From the NCBI GenBank assembly GCA_951406725.2, contig OX597819.1, positions 92,318,001 through 92,382,000 of the forward strand: a DNA stretch of 64,000 nt, read 5' to 3'. The notes below the pieces were generated by a model that ran no database searches, had not been told where the DNA came from, and saw nothing but the letters and a program-made list of their open reading frames with translations. Made by a program: the position numbers and the translations under genes. Below are positions 24,400-61,200 of this stretch, piece by piece (the first letter of the stretch is position 1; the number at the start of each line of letters is the position of its first letter). Origin of the DNA: Octopus vulgaris. Lineage: Eukaryota.

Positions 24400-25030
24400 T
24401 TTAAAGGTTTATATATCTGCACTTATGATAGTTAGCTGTGTAACTGACCAAAGTATTCTCATGGAATACATAGTCCCCATTGTGGTCCATCCAATTCTTC
24501 GCACCGGTGTTGCAATTTTTGGATCCCAGTAGTGAAGAAGCTTTTATCTTGTTGCTCAAGAAAGTGATCAACGGGAGATAGGACTTCATCATCACTGCGA
24601 TACTGGTTCACAGACAAGTGTTTTCTTTTAAGTTGGGGAACAGCTGATAGTCAAATTGGGCCAAATGGGGAGAATAGGAAGAGTGGTCAACCGGTTCAAA
24701 GCCACACTCACGGACAGGTAGCCATTGAAAGCAAGGACGGGTGTGGTGGAGCATTTTCCTGATGAAACAAGACCACTTTCGTCAGGTTTCTTGGGAGTTT
24801 GCAGTTAATAGCTTTTCGTAACTGCCTCAGGAATTTGGCATCGTAACATTGATGGTGTGGCCCTTTTGAAGTTAGCCAATAAACACGATGCCTTTTGCAT
24901 ACTAAAATACTGAGGCATTCACCTTCCCTGTAGATGAAACGACCATAGTCTTCTTTGATTCGGGTGACGCGAAGTGGTTCCACTGCATAAATTTGAATTA
25001 CCTCCTTGTCTCTGGTTCAAAGTGATGAAG
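24400..25030 (-). mobile_element. mariner transposase fragment
   Basis: LRQLRKAI..K.P..LTKVVLFHQENAPPH; HSSYSPHLAQFDYQLFPNLK (HPPYSPDLAPSDY-like); WLHHFEP. Confidence 0.8.
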
Positions 25031-34456: not shown

Positions 34457-34482
<26 letters not shown>

Positions 34483-34495
<13 letters not shown>

Positions 34496-37400
34496 TAAGG
34501 GTAGAAATTGATATTTATCAATTAAGACCAGTGGTCTAGCATATTAAAAAAAGAATCCGAAGATTAAAATATTTATATATACCAATTAAGGACTGAACAC
34601 GAAAAGTGGACAGTCAACATGCTAGATATAGACGTCAAATCGTCATTCTCCACAAAAGATTATGTTCTCAGATCAAACTCAACACAAAACCATAGCAATA
34701 AACAAGTGAAAAATATACGAAATAAAATAATTACCCATGTACTAACTTAGTTTCAGCTGTTATTTTCCGCAAGGAAAACTGCAGCCATCATCAGCATGGT
34801 CCGTTATAAATGTAATTTGCTGGACTAGATGCAAACACGATACCGAAATATCGCGTGCATGGAGTTCAGCCTATTACATTTGAATATATCTTTCAAATGC
34901 CTTTACCTTGGCGCGTTGAAACCTGAGAAAACTAGCCTGCAGCTAATAATTAGCAGCAGTTAATTTATCGGTTAGAGAACATATTTATTTATATAAAATT
35001 AATTAAGGGTAGAAATTGATATTTATCAATTAAGACCAGTGGTCTAGCATATTAAAAAAAGAATCCGAAGATTAAAATATTTATATATACCAATTAAGGA
35101 CTGAACACGAAAAGTGGACAGTCAACATGCTAGATATAGACGTCAAATCGTCATTCTCCACAAAAGATTATGTTCTCAGATCAAACTCAACACAAAACCA
35201 TAGCAATAAACAAGTGAAAAATATACGAAATAAAATAATTACCCATGTACTAACTTAGTTTCAGCTGTTATTTTCCGCAAGGAAAACTGCAGCCATCATC
35301 AGCATGGTCCGTTATAAATGTAATTTGCTGGACTAGATGCAAACACGATACCGAAATATCGCGTGCATGGAGTTCAGCCTATTACATTTGAATATATCTT
35401 TCAAATGCCTTTACCTTGGCGCGTTGAAACCCGAGAAAACTAGCCTGCAGCTAATAATTAGCAGCAGTTAATTTATCGGTTAGAGAACATATTTATTTAT
35501 ATAAAATTAATTAAGGGTAGAAATTGATATTTATCAATTAAGACCAGTGGTCTAGCATATTAAAAAAAGAATCCGAAGATTAAAATATTTATATATACCA
35601 ATTAAGGACTGAACATGAAAAGTGGACAGTCAACATGCTAGATATAGACGTCAAATCGTCATTCTCCACAAAAGATTATGTTCTCAGATCAAACTCAACA
35701 CAAAACCATAGCAATAAACAAGTGAAAAATATACGAAATAAAATAATTACCCATGTACTAACTTAGTTTCAGCTGTTATTTTCCGCAAGGAAAACTGCAG
35801 CCATCATCAGCATGGTCCGTTATAAATGTAATTTGCTGGACTAGATGCAAACACGATACCGAAATATCGCGTGCATGGAGTTCAGCCTATTACATTTGAA
35901 TATATCTTTCAAATGCCTTTACCTTGGCGCGTTGAAACCCGAGAAAACTAGCCTGCAGCTAATAATTAGCAGCAGTTAATTTATCGGTTAGAGAACATAT
36001 TTATTTATATAAAATTAATTAAGGGTAGAAATTGATATTTATCAATTAAGACCAGTGGTCTAGCATATTAAAAAAAGAATCCGAAGATTAAAATATTTAT
36101 ATATACCAATTAAGGACTGAACACGAAAAGTGGACAGTCAACATGCTAGATATAGACGTCAAATCGTCATTCTCCACAAAAGATTATGTTCTCAGATCAA
36201 ACTCAACACAAAACCATAGCAATAAACAAGTGAAAAATATACGAAATAAAATAATTACCCATGTACTAACTTAGTTTCAGCTGTTATTTTCCGCAAGGAA
36301 AACTGCAGCCATCATCAGCATGGTCCGTTATAAATGTAATTTGCTGGACTAGATGCAAACACGATACCGAAATATCGCGTGCATGGAGTTCAGCCTATTA
36401 CATTTGAATATATCTTTCAAATGCCTTTACCTTGGCGCGTTGAAACCCGAGAAAACTAGCCTGCAGCTAATAATTAGCAGCAGTTAATTTATCGGTTAGA
36501 GAACATATTTATTTATATAAAATTAATTAAGGGTAGAAATTGATATTTATCAATTAAGACCAGTGGTCTAGCATATTAAAAAAAGAATCCGAAGATTAAA
36601 ATATTTATATATACCAATTAAGGACTGAACATGAAAAGTGGACAGTCAACATGCTAGATATAGACGTCAAATCGTCATTCTCCACAAAAGATTATGTTCT
36701 CAGATCAAACTCAACACAAAACCATAGCAATAAACAAGTGAAAAATATACGAAATAAAATAATTACCCATGTACTAACTTAGTTTCAGCTGTTATTTTCC
36801 GCAAGGAAAACTGCAGCCATCATCAGCATGGTCCGTTATAAATGTAATTTGCTGGACTAGATGCAAACACGATACCGAAATATCGCGTGCATGGAGTTCA
36901 GCCTATTACATTTGAATATATCTTTCAAATGCCTTTACCTTGGCGCGTTGAAACCCGAGAAAACTAGCCTGCAGCTAATAATTAGCAGCAGTTAATTTAT
37001 CGGTTAGAGAACATATTTATTTATATAAAATTAATTAAGGGTAGAAATTGATATTTATCAATTAAGACCAGTGGTCTAGCATATTAAAAAAAGAATCCGA
37101 AGATTAAAATATTTATATATACCAATTAAGGACTGAACACGAAAAGTGGACAGTCAACATGCTAGATATAGACGTCAAATCGTCATTCTCCACAAAAGAT
37201 TATGTTCTCAGATCAAACTCAACACAAAACCATAGCAATAAACAAGTGAAAAATATACGAAATAAAATAATTACCCATGTACTAACTTAGTTTCAGCTGT
37301 TATTTTCCGCAAGGAAAACTGCAGCCATCATCAGCATGGTCCGTTATAAATGTAATTTGCTGGACTAGATGCAAACACGATACCGAAATATCGCGTGCAT

Positions 37401-38070
37401 GGAGTTCAGCCTATTACATTTGAATATATCTTTCAAATGCCTTTACCTTGGCGCGTTGAAACCCGAGAAAACTAGCCTGCAGCTAATAATTAGCAGCAGT
37501 TAATTTATCGGTTAGAGAACATATTTATTTATATAAAATTAATTAAGGGTAGAAATTGATATTTATCAATTAAGACCAGTGGTCTAGCATATTAAAAAAA
37601 GAATCCGAAGATTAAAATATTTATATATACCAATTAAGGACTGAACATGAAAAGTGGACAGTCAACATGCTAGATATAGACGTCAAATCGTCATTCTCCA
37701 CAAAAGATTATGTTCTCAGATCAAACTCAACACAAAACCATAGCAATAAACAAGTGAAAAATATACGAAATAAAATAATTACCCATGTACTAACTTAGTT
37801 TCAGCTGTTATTTTCCACAAGGAAAACTGCAGCCATCATCAGCATGGTCCGTTATAAATGTAATTTGCTGGACTAGATGCAAACACGATACCGAAATATC
37901 GCGTGCATGGAGTTCAGCCTATTACATTTGAATATATCTTTCAAATGCCTTTACCTTGGCGCGTTGAAACCCGAGAAAACTAGCCTGCAGCTAATAATTA
38001 GCAGCAGTTAATTTATCGGTTAGAGAACATATTTATTTATATAAAATTAATTAAGGGTAGAAATTGATAT
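34483..38070 (-). repeat. Tandem array, 7 x 508 bp plus ~30 bp, hammerhead-bearing (non-LTR retrozyme-like)
   Basis: TTAATTAAGGGTAG recurs at 34491, 34999, 35507, 36015, 36523, 37031, 37539 and 38047; copies differ at only about 3 positions; bounded by (TA)n. Confidence 0.97.
34735..34799 (-). ncRNA. Type I hammerhead ribozyme (also at +508n: 35243, 35751, 36259, 36767, 37275, 37783)
   Basis: Minus strand: CCATG-CTGATGA-T-GGCTG-cag-TTTTCC-ttgc-GGAAAA-taa-CAGCT-GAAA-CTAA-g-TTAG-TA-CATGG; intact core, stems I/II/III, GUA cleavage between 34740 and 34739. Confidence 0.88.
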
Positions 38071-38073
38071 TGA

Positions 38074-38228
38074 TATTTTATTTCGTATATTTTTCACTTG
38101 TTTATTGCTATGGTTTTGTGTTGAGTTTGATCTGAGAACATAATCTTTTGTGGAGAATGACGATTTGACGTCTATATCTAGCATGTTGACTGTCCACTTT
38201 TCGTGTTCAGTCCTTAATTGGTATATAT
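38074..38228 (+). repeat. Inverted partial copy of the 508-bp unit
   Basis: Reverse complement of about 34575-34729. Confidence 0.95.
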
Positions 38229-38249
38229 ATATATATATATATATGGAAT

Positions 38250-55260: not shown

Positions 55261-57117
55261 TTTGTTGCATTGATGTTTTTGCATGATTAGTTTTTTTATG
55301 TGCTAGCAAAGAGGATCAAATGTTGGTTACATCTCTAGGTATATTCTTTGAATTACTTGAAGCTGGCCTGGAATGAATAAAGCATGTCACTGAAGTGGTA
55401 GTGTATGATGATGAAAACACAAGCTATTGGCTATTTAACCGGTTGATTAATCAAACAATCGATTACTTAGTTGGTTAAATAGTTAATCACTTGAGGAACA
55501 ATAAAAAAGTGAAATTAAACCAATGCGTGTATTATTACTTTTATTATGACCTTCCCAAGAAACAAAGAATGGTCTACTTATTCTTCTTGTCACCATTCTT
55601 TTCTCCCCCTGCTTCATTCCCTTGTCACAGTTAAATCACTAGGCTAATTTCCTATATAACTATCAGACATATCGATTCATACATACGATAACAACATTGT
55701 GATTATCAATTACTTAAACTTTCTGAGACATATATAATTACATCTCCGGTGCCTGAGTACATCGTTTATCTAATATTTTCCAATATTTCATTGACATCAA
55801 GTTATCAGAAAAAAGAAAACTTCTGAGAAGAGCTCTTTACTGACGTAGTCAAATAAAATTGAACTTAATCTCTGATATATATGCATGCAATATACATGCA
55901 CAAGTAAGTCATTTTATATCTATCCGGTCACTGCATTTCCATTTTTAAAAAAATTATTGGGAAATTATGTGCTAATCTTGTTCAAATTTTTTGTCAATTA
56001 TTGGAAAACATACCGAAATTTGAGAACTAGTATTAGAACTTAATTTATCAGAAAGATAATTATAAATTCCGTCTTAATTTATTTTTTATCGCACACTTGC
56101 TTGCTATCATCGATTACTGTTTTTTTTTTTCCATTTCTGCAAGGAACTTTTATGCAAATATTTAAATTATTATGCAACTCTCTTAATCCTACAACTGAAA
56201 TAAACAAAACAAATTGCTATATATCTATTCCCTTGTGTTCTAGAGTTACAAACACCCTTCAAATGTCGATCTTCTTCTTCTTCTTTTTCTTCTTCTCCTC
56301 CTCCTCCTTCTTCTTATTCTCCTCCCCTCCTCCTTCTTCCTCTTCTTACCTACTTGAATTATGGTGCAAAACATTTCATTGAAGGGCATCAGGTCGTACT
56401 AGATGATTAAAGGCTTAAATTATATAGTACATTCTTGCTTTTGTTTTAAACCGACAGGTAGTGAATTTAAATGGTTTTGGTTACTATATTTACCATGTCG
56501 AGGGATGACGTAGAGGTTCCTTCGAATGGACTTTTTTGTTCTGATCAGCTGCAATCGGCTCAGAACAAATATACCGAAAACAAGAGGTAGCCAATAAAAG
56601 AAATTGCTCTTATGTCATTTAAATCATCTTTATTGAGTTTATATTAGATGCGAAAACAAAATTGGAGGCAGCACTTCAATGTGACATGGGCATCACATTC
56701 AGCTCTTCATATTGTTGTTTTTTACTTATTGTTTTACTATGTTTATTGTGGATAGTGGAGATGAAGATGGGGACAGTGGTGAAGGTGATGAAAGTCATAT
56801 TGGTGCTATAGCAGGTGATTGTGGTGTTGTAGAGAGTGGTGATTGGCCACAGGTTAGCACTAGTCATACATTGTATCAAAGATGTTCTAACTGTGATCAT
56901 CAGTCTCTTTTATTATTTCTTGGCATATTGCATATGTTTTCTTTGATTTCACATTTATTCCTATAACCTTTGCATATCTTCCAAGACTGGCGAGTTTCAT
57001 GACATCGATGCCCATCTTGACAACGGCCGGAAGAACATGGGCGAGTACGATGGAAGGTGCGGTAGACAAAATTTCAGAGAATTAGAAAGTAGTGAGCCTG
57101 GTATATATGTGTGTATA

Positions 57118-57548
57118 GGCGTAGGAGTGGTTGTGTGGTAAGTAGCTTGCTTACCAACAACATGGTTCCGGGTTCAGTCCCACTGCGTGGCACCTTGGGC
57201 AAGTTTATTCTATTATAGCCACGGGCCGACCAAAGCCTTGTGAGTGGATTTGGTAGACGGAAACTGAAAGAAGCCCGTTGTCTAGATGTATATATATATA
57301 TAAGTGTGTGCGTGTGTGTGTGTATGTGTATGCGTTTGTGCATGTGTCTGTGTGTCTGTGTTTGTCCCCACAACATCGCTTGACAACCGATGCTGATGTG
57401 TTTACGTACCCGTAATCTAGCGTTTCATCAAAAGTGGCCGATAGAATAAGTATTACGCTTACAAAGAATAAATCCTGGGGTCGATTTGCTCGACTAGAGG
57501 CGGTACTCCAGCATGGCCACAGTCACATGATTGAAACAAGTAAAAGAG
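57118..57548 (+). mobile_element. SINE family A, full length
   Basis: Complete head-to-tail homology with 23847-24251. Confidence 0.9.
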
Positions 57549-57779
57549 TGTGTGTTTGCTTTATTGTTTGTTGTGCATTTGTGTGTGTGTGTGTGTGCAT
57601 TGTGAATGTGTGTGAGCGTTCATGCGTACGTTTTGGTGTAGATTATATGCTGCCAGCTATCTCCAAGCATCGGCGGCCATCGTAGCAGCGGCAGTTGGAT
57701 GGGATGATGAGTTCGACGACACTATACTTGCTAGCTTTCACTTAGGTATAGTCTAAAATATTCATGTAAGTAACAGGAA

Positions 57780-58520
57780 CACCAGAAACACTATTACAAA
57801 GATATAGCAGCAGTTATCATTGTGGGTATTACTTGAGTTTTGTGAAGAACCTGTAACTCTTGCGAAGTGAGCTGCATTATAGTTTTGAAGAGGACAATTA
57901 CTTTATGCGATGCAATTTACGTGGTTATGGATGTGAGATCATCCAAAGAGTTAATCAATAATTGTGCGGTCTAGCACTTTTATTAACATTGACGGTTTTA
58001 GTTGCGTGTTGTCTAAGGCCATGGAAGAAAGGAAACAAGATTATTTCCTTGATTAGTGTAATTATTGCATATTTGTGCTACTGAAAGACACAAGATTGAT
58101 ATGTATCCAACAGAGAATATTTCCGAATATTTCCAAATTTCGAACTGCCTCTTCACTGAGGCAGGTGGAGATTTGAGTTGAAAGGTCTGTTTTGGTTGTG
58201 TATGGATAATGCCTGGACAAAAGATTTTAGAAGAATGAAGAAAGTGGTATCATCTGCATAGAAATATCTTGTTTAATGTGTCATTGTTTTCATAAAATGG
58301 TTGAGTGTGATTTGAGGGATACCTGAGGTTGGTATCACTGACACAGAGAGATTTACATGCACAATCCCTTAATGACTGGTATATTATCCCCGTTAGTTTG
58401 TTGTAAAATATCGATCATTATATTCAATGGTAGAAATAATGCATGCTTAGTAGATATATGGGCCTATGTGTTTGCCATCTTCCAGACACCTCTGTATGCA
58501 GTGTTTAAAGAATTTGTACT
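57780..58520 (-). mobile_element. CR1/L2-like LINE reverse transcriptase remnant
   Basis: YADDTT at 58243-58260; downstream LCWIHINLVSFSSTNMQ (cf. W...NLV.FN..KTQ); highly decayed. Confidence 0.6.
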
Positions 58521-58899
58521 GTCAAGAAGAAAGTGATATTGGCACTTTTAGAGTGATAGGCACCGACGAAAAAGAGGTAATTTTCTTGAAAATCCCATTT
58601 TAATTTTGATTTGCTATTCATTTCAGATACACTCATATTCAAGCCGTTAATTTGGAGGAAAAGGCACGAACGTCTTACAACCTAACATATTTTAAACACC
58701 GAAAGAAACTGTCGTTACATATTTTATTGTGTCGAAGAAGACCGTGACATATAAATACAATCTGCGTTACAGAGATTGCCTGGGTGCCAAATATGTAGAA
58801 AATCGTATTTGGTTAAAGTTAAATGATCATCATTGTGTAGTTATTTTGAATGTAAATATATAACTGTGAAAAGAATAGGGGAAATAAAGAGGGAAAATA

Positions 58900-59051
58900 C
58901 TTTTATTGTTTACATTATTTATATTCGACAGATATTTGTCGTCATCTTGTATGTTGTTAACACAATGTTTCGGCTGATATACCCTCCAGCCTTCATCAGG
59001 TGTCTTGGGGAAATTTCGAAACTAAGTTCTCATTCCTGAGGTATTTTTCGA

Positions 59052-59091
<40 letters not shown>

Positions 59092-59165
59092 GTTCAGGTC
59101 ACTGCTTGGAATCGAACTCGGAATCTTGGGGTTAGTAGCCCGCACTCTTAACCACTACACCATAT
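58900..59165 (-). mobile_element. tRNA-headed SINE-like element carrying a hammerhead ribozyme
   Basis: Minus strand: GCATATGGTGTAGTGGTTAAG (A box)...GAGTTCGATTCC (B box), (AAT)n, then hammerhead and tail. Confidence 0.75.
58960..59003 (-). ncRNA. Minimal type I hammerhead ribozyme
   Basis: ACAC-CTGATGA-A-GGCTG-gagggtatat-CAGCC-GAAA-CA-TT-GTGT; canonical core, stem III CA probably a decayed CG. Confidence 0.75.
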
Positions 59166-60997
59166 GCTCGTGGGTATATGGCGTAGTGGTTAAGATGAGG
59201 ACAAATATCCGTCGAATGTAAATAATGTGCATAATTCCTCATCTCTTAAATATAGAACTCAAATGCTTTTATTATTGCGTGCTATATATTGTTTGTAATG
59301 CTATAATCGTACTTTCAGTGTGTATTTCTGTAGGTCGTGAAAAATTGCAAGAATTCTGGGCTTACAGTTCAATTACAGTTCAATAAAGTATAGCGTTATA
59401 CACTTTGCAAATATATAAAATCGATTTTTGTTTTGTTAATTTGTAGCAGATTTTGTATGCAAAATAATTAATTGAGAAAAGACGTCAAAAGAAAAATGTT
59501 ATATTTGATGAAACGATCGTTGAAAATATATAAATAAAAAAAGCTGCTCCTATATAATTCCTTTTTTTTATATTGGCACATGGCCTGCATTTTTAAAGGA
59601 GGTTTTAGTCGATCAGATAAACCCTTGTATTTTGCTTGTACTTAATCTTATCGATCCCTTACTGTTTATAATGATGTCTATCACAATTATTGTTCCCATT
59701 GTAAACTTTTTCGATCTGTTCTGTACAGCTTTGTGTGTGAGTGCGTACGTGTGTGCGTACTTGTGCGTCTGTGCCTGTGTGTCTGTTTGTGTGAGTGTTT
59801 GTGTATGTAGGTAGGTGTGTTGTGTGTCTTCAGCTAAACCTACGCATTAAGAATTTGTTGCCTTGAAGCATTTTTATATTTTGGATTTGTATTTCATTTT
59901 CTGCAAGGTCTTTTTCAACAATTATTGGGATACTTCACTACATACAAATAAGCTCTGACCTTCTTTCTATATACAGTCAATTAAATCAATTTAAAAACAT
60001 AACTAGTATTTATTTATATCGAGCCTGCGCTTTTATGTAAGGAACGCTAAACATACTTCGGGTATTATGTGACATCTATAATGTGTATGGAACACAAACT
60101 GAAAATAATTATACATTTTAGTAGTTTTTGCTTTATGTAAGCTCGCTCCACATGATATGGAAATAATGAGCGCCCCAAATTCTCTTAATTACTTGTCAAT
60201 TGATGTTATTCATTCCGTATATATCTAAAGGAAAATCTGTTCTGTTCATTTTTCTGAAGATGTTTTCGTGGAAATTTCGAATACTAATTGTAGCAAGAAT
60301 GTTTCTTTATTAGTTTTTGGAAATCTGCTTGTATATTTAATTTTAGTAATAACATTTTGAGTAATTTTGAAGGTATGTGTTTCCGCTTATTTCCCAAATA
60401 CAGATCTGTTTTGGATTGCCAACTCGTTTAAGGAAAAAATTTAAACGCAATAATGTTTTTTTTTCGTTATCTTTAGAATTAAGCTATTTAGTTTAAATTA
60501 CTTCAAAATGTGTTCTCATAAAATTTTCTGCCAAAAATCTACGAATTATGCCTTCGTGGCATAATATTGAGGCAATATTCCATTTGGCGTATAAACTAGA
60601 AGTAAGACTCTATTCGTGACTATCTCTATTCGTTTACACTTAATGTCTGTATGACTACATTATCCAATGTCCCCTTTTGAATAGAGTGTTGTCACAGAGC
60701 AAGTTTGATAGCTAGATCCAGGAAATTTCTCGTTTGATCGCGCAGAAAAATAGAGGAAAGTGAAAGCGGGTGAGGTATAGCAGTAATGGCGGAAATTATT
60801 GAAACGCCACAAAATATTACTAAATGAAGTGACAAAAATAAAATAAAAAATAGTTAGGGACATAACACCCTATATTTAGTAACTACAGAGAAAAATATAG
60901 AATGGAAACACGTTTTGAGTAAATTAAAAATAAATTCTGGAGGCTTCTCGCCCTAAAAGTTATGTAAAAACGTAAAACGTCACAAAATGTCTTTTAT

Positions 60998-61200
60998 CTC
61001 ATACTTGTTTCAGTTATTGGACTGCGCCCATACTCTAGCACCACCTTGAAATGGTTTAATCGAATGAATCGATTCTTTACTTAATTCTGGTGCTTATTAC
61101 ATCGTTTTCTTTACGAACCACTAAGGTAAGGTGGACGTAAAGAAACCAACATCGGTTGTCTAGCAGTGGTGGGGGACAAACACAAAAAAAGACATACATC
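60998..61200 (-). mobile_element. SINE family A 3' part, degenerate
   Basis: TACTTGTTTCAG...GAACCACTAAG...ACCAACATCGGTTGTC homology. Confidence 0.7.

What the first reader, a model, noticed from the sequence alone, without database searches (positions are those of the whole stretch)
58900..59260. SINE-ribozyme hybrid: Pol III tRNA head + (AAT)n + hammerhead, with an inverted deleted copy
Seen: the minus strand has a tRNA-like head with A and B boxes (~59100-59165), (AAT)n, a canonical-core minimal hammerhead (58960-59003) and a tail. Head-to-head on the plus strand (59172-59235), the first ~20 nt of the head is fused directly to the tail, making inverted repeats with 58902-58948. Known: schistosome Sm-alpha repeats combine a Pol III promoter and a hammerhead, and inversions typify Penelope-type integration. 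Inference: a self-transcribing, Penelope-mobilised SINE class.
Basis: partly seen in the sequence, partly recalled or inferred. Interest (0 to 1): 0.7.

Follow-up and report, generated by a model that had tools for sequence, protein, structure and literature searches.

The report
Penelope retrotransposon end with tRNA-type promoter
This is not a separate small jumping element but the end repeat of a common protein-coding jumping gene, inserted back to back; the unusual part is a tRNA-like start signal at the front of the repeat, which likely lets RNA polymerase III, an enzyme that normally makes short non-coding RNAs, read the element.

Summary
In detail: tRNA-like head, (AAT)n, minimal hammerhead and tail on the minus strand, with a deleted head-to-head copy. 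The unit has thousands of copies, so it is not chance nesting. The reading 'SINE class' is not supported. The unit is the pseudo-LTR of an autonomous Penelope/Poseidon-type element: the head follows the RT/GIY-YIG ORF's stop codon in 29 of 30 loci picked by the ORF end, and the hammerhead and 'tail' encode the ORF's N-terminus. The insertion shows Penelope signatures: one long and one short end, a palindromic junction and a 13-bp target-site duplication. Solo and ORF-linked copies share the same variants. What is unusual is the tRNA-Arg-like A/B-box head at the repeat's 5' edge. 45 of 57 loci reaching that edge stop there, and the 2.5-kb sense strand has no TTTT run (3-4.7 expected, P 0.004-0.03); relatives show no such depletion overall. 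Pol III transcription is inferred, not shown. This copy's hammerhead has a broken stem III. The scan noted the same family earlier in this genome (e1-8669850).

The parts
58895..58907 (+). Left target-site duplication (13 bp; last 3 nt overlap the element end)
   Evidence: 1 mismatch to 59261-59273
58908..59175 (-). Solo pseudo-LTR of a Penelope-like element, short 3' end (about family position 149 after the microsatellite)
   Evidence: 92-93% to family reference
59095..59175 (-). tRNA-Arg-like head plus 6-nt leader; 5' edge of the pseudo-LTR
59152..59162 (-). A box
   Evidence: sequence; aligns with the tRNA D-arm region
59108..59119 (-). B box
   Evidence: sequence; aligns with the tRNA T-arm
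59054..59093 (-). (AAT)n spacer between head and start codon; variable length among copies
58908..59033 (-). 5' end of the element's ORF (ATG at 59031-59033; stop at codon 4 in this copy); contains the hammerhead and the 'tail'
   Evidence: family frame matches P0008 residues 18-96 at 54%, E 2.5e-19
58960..59003 (-). Minimal type I hammerhead; stem I 4 bp, stem II 5 bp; predicted cut between 58964 and 58963; stem III tetramer broken by CpG decay in this copy
59160..59181 (.). Palindromic head-to-head junction of the two arms (loop 59170-59171)
   Evidence: (z -7.65 for 59140-59200)
59172..59259 (+). Inverted partner arm: first 24 nt of head joined by 4-nt microhomology to the tail; long 3' end (family position 182); B box, (AAT)n and hammerhead deleted
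59261..59273 (+). Right target-site duplication

Best explanation
[quoted passage not shown] Shown: the family unit is ORF stop, short 3' UTR, palindrome, head, (AAT)n, ATG, hammerhead, tail, with the tail running on into the RT/GIY-YIG ORF. Inferred: transcription starts at the palindrome, 13 nt before the A box. The element's protein nicks AT-rich DNA and starts reverse transcription at two internal sites about 40 nt apart in the tail, as shown for the anole element PAc. Copying from the 5' repeat reaches the RNA's 5' end after about 300 nt, which would give the many SINE-sized copies. The two cDNAs, or one fold-back cDNA, join at the palindrome, giving a head-to-head pair with one long end, one short end and a target-site duplication. 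The hammerhead would cut only as a dimer and is probably not needed for insertion; in this copy it is likely inactive.
For: Head directly after the ORF stop in 29 of 30 loci picked by the ORF end, and hammerhead/tail after it in 26 of 30. Direct repeat-ORF-repeat copy L069 and inverted-plus-direct copy L062/L065. RT hit PF00078; RT stretch 40% and C-terminal nuclease 29% (E 6e-22) to Anolis protein P0043. Hammerhead and tail in frame with a relative's N-terminus. Inverted partner in 60 of 88 loci; 56 of 60 pairs have one long and one short end, p 2.5e-14. Duplications of 10 bp or more in 35 of 60 pairs versus 1.7% of random pairs. Exact 20-mer counts: hammerhead 6,868, head 5,148, ORF end 690. 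45 of 57 loci reaching the head start stop there, 4.2 ends per 100 nt versus 0.06-0.45 elsewhere. No TTTT in the sense strand versus 3.0-4.7 expected; copies 0.52 per kb versus 2.38 in 43 T-matched relatives; a second Penelope-like family of this genome has 12 versus 8-10 expected. Contigs of four differently labelled organisms bridge the ORF-end-to-head junction.
Against: No transcription data. The TTTT deficit is modest: P 0.028 under synonymous shuffling, and 3 of 43 T-matched relatives are as low, 2 of them at zero. Pseudo-LTRs that start with a palindrome and turn there occur in Adineta Penelope families, where the paper names no tRNA part (PMC3846280, passages), so clustered 5' ends do not prove a Pol III start. 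Drosophila Penelope uses a LINE-like internal promoter (PMC2377424, abstract). Pol III RNA lacks the usual cap, which is a problem for translating about 825 codons (recalled). Pfam did not call the nuclease GIY-YIG in this element or in P0043. No intact ORF copy was identified among the 30 best.
Confidence: 0.6

Rival explanations
1. Ordinary Penelope element with a passenger tRNA/SINE fragment: a tRNA-like piece was once captured in the 3' UTR, transcription is by Pol II, and copies stop at the head because the palindrome promotes stalling or self-priming.
For: Palindromes at pseudo-LTR 5' ends and inverted junctions are described for Adineta (PMC3846280, passages). The native junction folds as a modest hairpin (z -1.67). 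Two relatives with no head found also have no TTTT in the matched ORF stretch.
Against: The repeat's edge falls within about 6 nt of the tRNA's first base. The whole unit, UTR included, is TTTT-free, whereas 17 of 18 relatives have TTTT between ORF end and hammerhead and 0 of 18 have a B box there (these relatives are not all independent).
Confidence: 0.27
2. One reading: short copies are a self-propagating SINE lineage, transcribed by Pol III from solo copies and mobilised in trans by the Penelope protein.
For: Head copies outnumber ORF-end copies about 7 to 1. Solo copies keep A/B boxes and both reverse-transcription start sites, so they could be templates.
Against: No solo-specific allele among 99 solo versus 47 ORF-linked arms; shared variants at similar frequencies (33 of 97 versus 15 of 37; 13 of 99 versus 5 of 45) and similar divergence, 3.8% versus 4.3%. 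No sequence in the short unit is missing from the autonomous element.
Confidence: 0.1
3. The RNA's 5' end is made by RNase P-like cutting at the tRNA-like head of a longer Pol II transcript.
For: Ends cluster near the tRNA's first base.
Against: Many copies keep the 6 nt upstream of tRNA position 1. The head does not fold as a cloverleaf and scores no Rfam tRNA hit even in a near-consensus copy.
Confidence: 0.02
4. Chance nesting of a SINE and a hammerhead repeat at this locus only.
For: None found.
Against: 24 of 30 loci picked by the head alone carry the hammerhead part downstream; 66 of 88 loci picked by the hammerhead alone carry the head.
Confidence: 0.01

Closest known systems
Poseidon_Ac (PAc), Penelope/Poseidon element of the green anole (PMC11167929; parts 1-2 of 4 read: abstract, main text, start of methods)
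   Same: Single RT plus C-terminal nuclease ORF; hammerhead overlapping the ORF start; two reverse-transcription start sites that define an optional 30-40-nt tail; AT-rich targets. P0043 (Anolis) is probably this protein (inferred from its size and host).
   Different: No tRNA-like head or Pol III promoter in the parts read. Here the ATG lies upstream of the whole hammerhead and an A/B-box head precedes it.
Adineta vaga Penelope families Pen2, Pen2a, Pen3a (PMC3846280; 12 passages seen)
   Same: Direct and inverted pseudo-LTRs, tail on one end, 8-10-bp duplications, palindrome at the repeat's 5' end, repeat includes the first codons, solo repeats.
   Different: TATA/Inr-like Pol II motifs are proposed; the word tRNA does not occur in that paper's main text.
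Minimal type I hammerheads of metazoan PLEs (PMC4209133; part 1 of 4 read)
   Same: Short stem I, no stem III loop, predicted dimer cleavage; many single or opposite-strand copies from truncated elements.
   Different: No tRNA head in the part read.
Schistosoma SM-alpha / Sj-alpha SINE-like repeats (passages in PMC8490949; the 1998 primary paper was not held)
   Same: Short repeat with a type I hammerhead, called SINE-like.
   Different: Here the unit is the terminal repeat of a coding element. The Pol III promoter of SM-alpha is recalled, not checked.
TRIMp3 elements Cassandra, Helenus, Ajax (PMC10886601; 12 passages seen)
   Same: A small-RNA-derived Pol III promoter inside a terminal repeat of a retroelement.
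   Different: Those are short non-autonomous LTR elements, and the author expects their autonomous partners to use Pol II. Here the head sits in the repeat of the autonomous element itself.

Membership tests
EN+ Penelope-like element (Penelope/Poseidon type) | Single ORF with RT and C-terminal GIY-YIG nuclease | tested here: met
   PF00078; nuclease region aligns to P0043, E 6e-22; no Pfam GIY-YIG call for either protein
EN+ Penelope-like element (Penelope/Poseidon type) | Pseudo-LTRs in direct and inverted arrangement, including the first codons | tested here: met
   L069, L062/L065
EN+ Penelope-like element (Penelope/Poseidon type) | 30-40-nt tail at one end only | tested here: met
   56 of 60 pairs; also the window copy
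EN+ Penelope-like element (Penelope/Poseidon type) | Minimal hammerhead in the pseudo-LTR | tested here: met
   motif only, cleavage untested
EN+ Penelope-like element (Penelope/Poseidon type) | Clade placement by RT phylogeny | not tested
   Similarity only; no tree built
tRNA-derived SINE | tRNA-derived head with A and B boxes | tested here: met
   Best match tRNA-Arg(TCT), z about 10, among 36 tRNA genes covering few isotypes; no Rfam or ARAGORN call
tRNA-derived SINE | Non-autonomous family distinct from its partner, sharing only a 3' tail | tested here: not met
   The entire unit, head included, is part of the autonomous element; no solo-specific alleles
tRNA-derived SINE | Transcription by Pol III | not testable with these tools
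   Indirect only
tRNA-derived SINE | LINE-type 3' end (poly-A or simple repeat tail) | tested here: not met
   Ends fall at two internal positions of coding sequence
Non-LTR retrozyme | Tandem non-coding units each with a type I hammerhead | tested here: not met
   Copies are single or head-to-head in most of 88 loci and the hammerhead is inside an ORF

The most novel reading that the evidence does not exclude
An autonomous, protein-coding retrotransposon whose full 2.7-kb RNA is made by RNA polymerase III from a captured tRNA promoter in its terminal repeat, with the ORF purged of TTTT terminators; the same RNA yields tens of thousands of SINE-sized copies, showing one route by which a Penelope element can look like, or give rise to, a SINE.
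Probability: 0.33. Interest if true: 0.8.

Novelty: new variant of a known kind. Interest (0 to 1): 0.5.

Why it matters
Autonomous retroelements are generally held to rely on Pol II (or Pol I read-through), and Pol III to drive only short non-coding parasites (recalled; stated for LTR partners in PMC10886601). A Pol III-driven Penelope element would break that split and pose a testable question about cap-independent translation. It would also fit the PAc finding that reverse transcription starts inside the RNA, so the RNA's 3' end need not be defined. At the least, a large repeat family that looks like a SINE is really a Penelope terminal repeat. I found no paper describing a tRNA-headed pseudo-LTR in 8 searches (listings only, except the papers cited as read). 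Repbase, Dfam, SINEBase, the 1994 octopus SINE paper and supplements could not be seen and may already hold this family.

Tried and rejected
Rfam on 57000-61000 and on a near-consensus head: no tRNA or hammerhead family hit. ARAGORN on the window: none; at a relaxed threshold it gave noise. Random sampling of 40 x 10 kb gave only 2 loci, too few for end statistics; it suggests roughly 10^4 loci. IMG/VR scan: no relatives. Sequencing runs: no RNA holder listed. Contig depths were not used as evidence of expression or start sites. Rfam on 8 metagenome relatives found no tRNA-like part. One fold (L183) was on the wrong strand and is ignored. One search used an empty head reference and was redone; one search crashed and was redone. 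Rows dropped before counting: L150 (same locus as L149) and L157 (duplicate of L158), leaving 88 of 90 loci, all from the first listed matches on contig C1. The octopus genome paper and the SM-alpha primary paper were not held. Twelve positions differed between ORF-linked and solo arms at p<0.02; all showed more gaps or decay in the ORF-linked set rather than a solo allele, so they were not taken as subfamily marks.

Full report
Observation. The described parts are present. On the minus strand lie a head with A box (59152-59162) and B box (59108-59119), an (AAT)n run, a hammerhead core (58960-59003) and a tail. On the plus strand the first 24 nt of the head are joined to the tail by a 4-nt microhomology, and the arm runs to 59259. 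The arms meet in a palindrome (59160-59181; fold z -7.65). A 13-bp duplication with one mismatch flanks the insertion. The window lies in a 2.8-Gb animal genome, probably an octopus (my inference from size and recalled repeats; not tested).

Copy number. The unit had 3,681 candidates. A 33-nt hammerhead stretch matched exactly 2,166 times, its reversed control 0 times. 24 of 30 loci picked by the head alone have the hammerhead part downstream, and 66 of 88 picked by the hammerhead alone have the head. Chance nesting is excluded.

What it is. Five of the first 30 loci continued upstream of the head into shared sequence that translates as a nuclease-like C-terminus. Of 30 loci picked by that ORF end, 29 have the head right after the stop codon and 26 the hammerhead and tail. 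Further upstream is an RT (PF00078), 40% identical to Anolis protein P0043; the nuclease region aligns to it at E 6e-22. Pfam gave no GIY-YIG call for either. Downstream, the tail runs on into the ORF's 5' part. The ATG lies between (AAT)n and the hammerhead, and this frame matches relative P0008 at 54%. L069 is repeat-ORF-repeat; L062/L065 has an added inverted repeat. The 'SINE' is therefore the pseudo-LTR of an autonomous Penelope/Poseidon-type element. Contigs from four differently labelled organisms bridge the ORF-end-to-head junction; one or more may be the window's own species. Non-CpG divergence is about 4%, and no intact ORF was identified among the 30 best copies, so the family is probably old.

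Insertion signature. In 88 loci picked only by the hammerhead (90 fetched from contig C1, 2 duplicates dropped), 60 have an inverted partner, and 56 of those pair a short end with an end about 40 nt longer (p 2.5e-14). Duplications of 10 bp or more flank 35 of 60 pairs, against 1.7% of random pairs. This matches the one-sided tail, palindromic junctions and duplications described for Penelope elements (PMC8557442 and PMC3846280, passages) and the two internal start sites of PAc (PMC11167929, parts 1-2). Paired arms mostly share subfamily alleles (18 of 20 at one site), so both likely come from one source element.

Is there a separate SINE? Short copies dominate: exact 20-mers number 6,868 (hammerhead), 5,148 (head) and 690 (ORF end). 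But 99 solo and 47 ORF-linked arms share the same variants at similar frequencies and divergence, with no solo-specific allele. The simplest reading is that short copies come from the same masters, by reverse transcription that starts in the 5' repeat and runs off the RNA's 5' end (inference). Some self-amplification of solo copies is not excluded.

The unusual part. The head aligns best to this genome's tRNA-Arg(TCT) (z about 10 among 36 genes of few isotypes), though Rfam and ARAGORN do not call it. It sits at the repeat's 5' edge: 45 of 57 loci reaching that edge end there, 4.2 ends per 100 nt against 0.06-0.45 elsewhere. Of 76 arms with an intact head start, 11 continue into the native UTR and 65 were not scored as doing so. 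The edge is 13 nt before the A box, the spacing typical of SINE starts (recalled). The 2.5-kb sense strand has no TTTT run, the Pol III stop signal (recalled), against 3.0 (P 0.028), 4.7 (P 0.004) or 4.5 (P 0.012) expected under three shuffles; A runs are as expected. Controls: 79 related loci have 496 runs against 448 expected; a second Penelope-like family here has 12 against 8-10; 17 of 18 relatives have TTTT between ORF end and hammerhead and none has a B box. Against this: 3 of 43 T-matched relatives are as low as this family's copies, 2 at zero; palindrome-started repeats occur in Adineta with no tRNA part named; Drosophila Penelope has a LINE-like internal promoter (PMC2377424, abstract); and translation of an uncapped RNA is unexplained.

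Hammerhead. It is a minimal type I motif that would need a dimer (PMC4209133, part 1). The family's stem III tetramer is self-complementary (85 of 170 copies keep the majority form); the window copy has the CpG-decayed form seen in 33 of 170 and is likely inactive. In PAc, cleavage was not needed for insertion in vitro (PMC11167929).

Prior art. Eight searches showed no tRNA-headed pseudo-LTR. Also seen: part 1 of 5 of bioRxiv 10.64898/2026.07.22.740005 (retrozymes as PLE derivatives) and passages of PMC13282606, PMC4758252, PMC7229834, PMC8490949 and PMC10886601. Repeat databases and supplements were not seen.

Verdict. A Penelope-type terminal repeat (about 0.95) with a tRNA-derived head that likely acts as a Pol III promoter (0.6 for the whole model; 0.33 that the full coding RNA is a Pol III product). 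New variant of a known kind; interest 0.5.

Noticed in passing
window 34473-38234: Tandem array of about 7.4 units of 508 bp (99.6% alike) between (TA)n runs; each unit has a type I hammerhead on the minus strand with a closable stem III. Looks like a young non-LTR retrozyme array.
   Followed up: partly
L183:1338-1372 and other ORF-linked copies: The native 3' UTR just before the palindrome resembles a decayed inverted copy of the head's first 17 nt, as if the head had been captured by the element's own fold-back step (alignment; inference).
   Followed up: partly
L164, L175, L181, L184, L195, L196, L156, L207: Copies truncated in the (AAT)n spacer are joined to (AAT)n runs that end other recurring repeats, probably LINE 3' ends, suggesting microhomology joining at those tails.
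   Followed up: no
L285-L314: A second Penelope-like family with a different C-terminal nuclease (Neptune-like, label recalled), 866 candidates, T-run rich; used as control.
   Followed up: partly
L318, L329: Two metagenome relatives have no TTTT in the matched ORF stretch and no tRNA head was found; L318 has a T-rich 3' UTR.
   Followed up: partly
L056-L058 (contig C31); L031/L032 (contig C1): Apparently the same insertion at several places, i.e. segmental duplications.
   Followed up: no
window about 24740-24790, minus strand: A weak hammerhead-like core preceded by sequence resembling this family's stem I context; not examined further.
   Followed up: no
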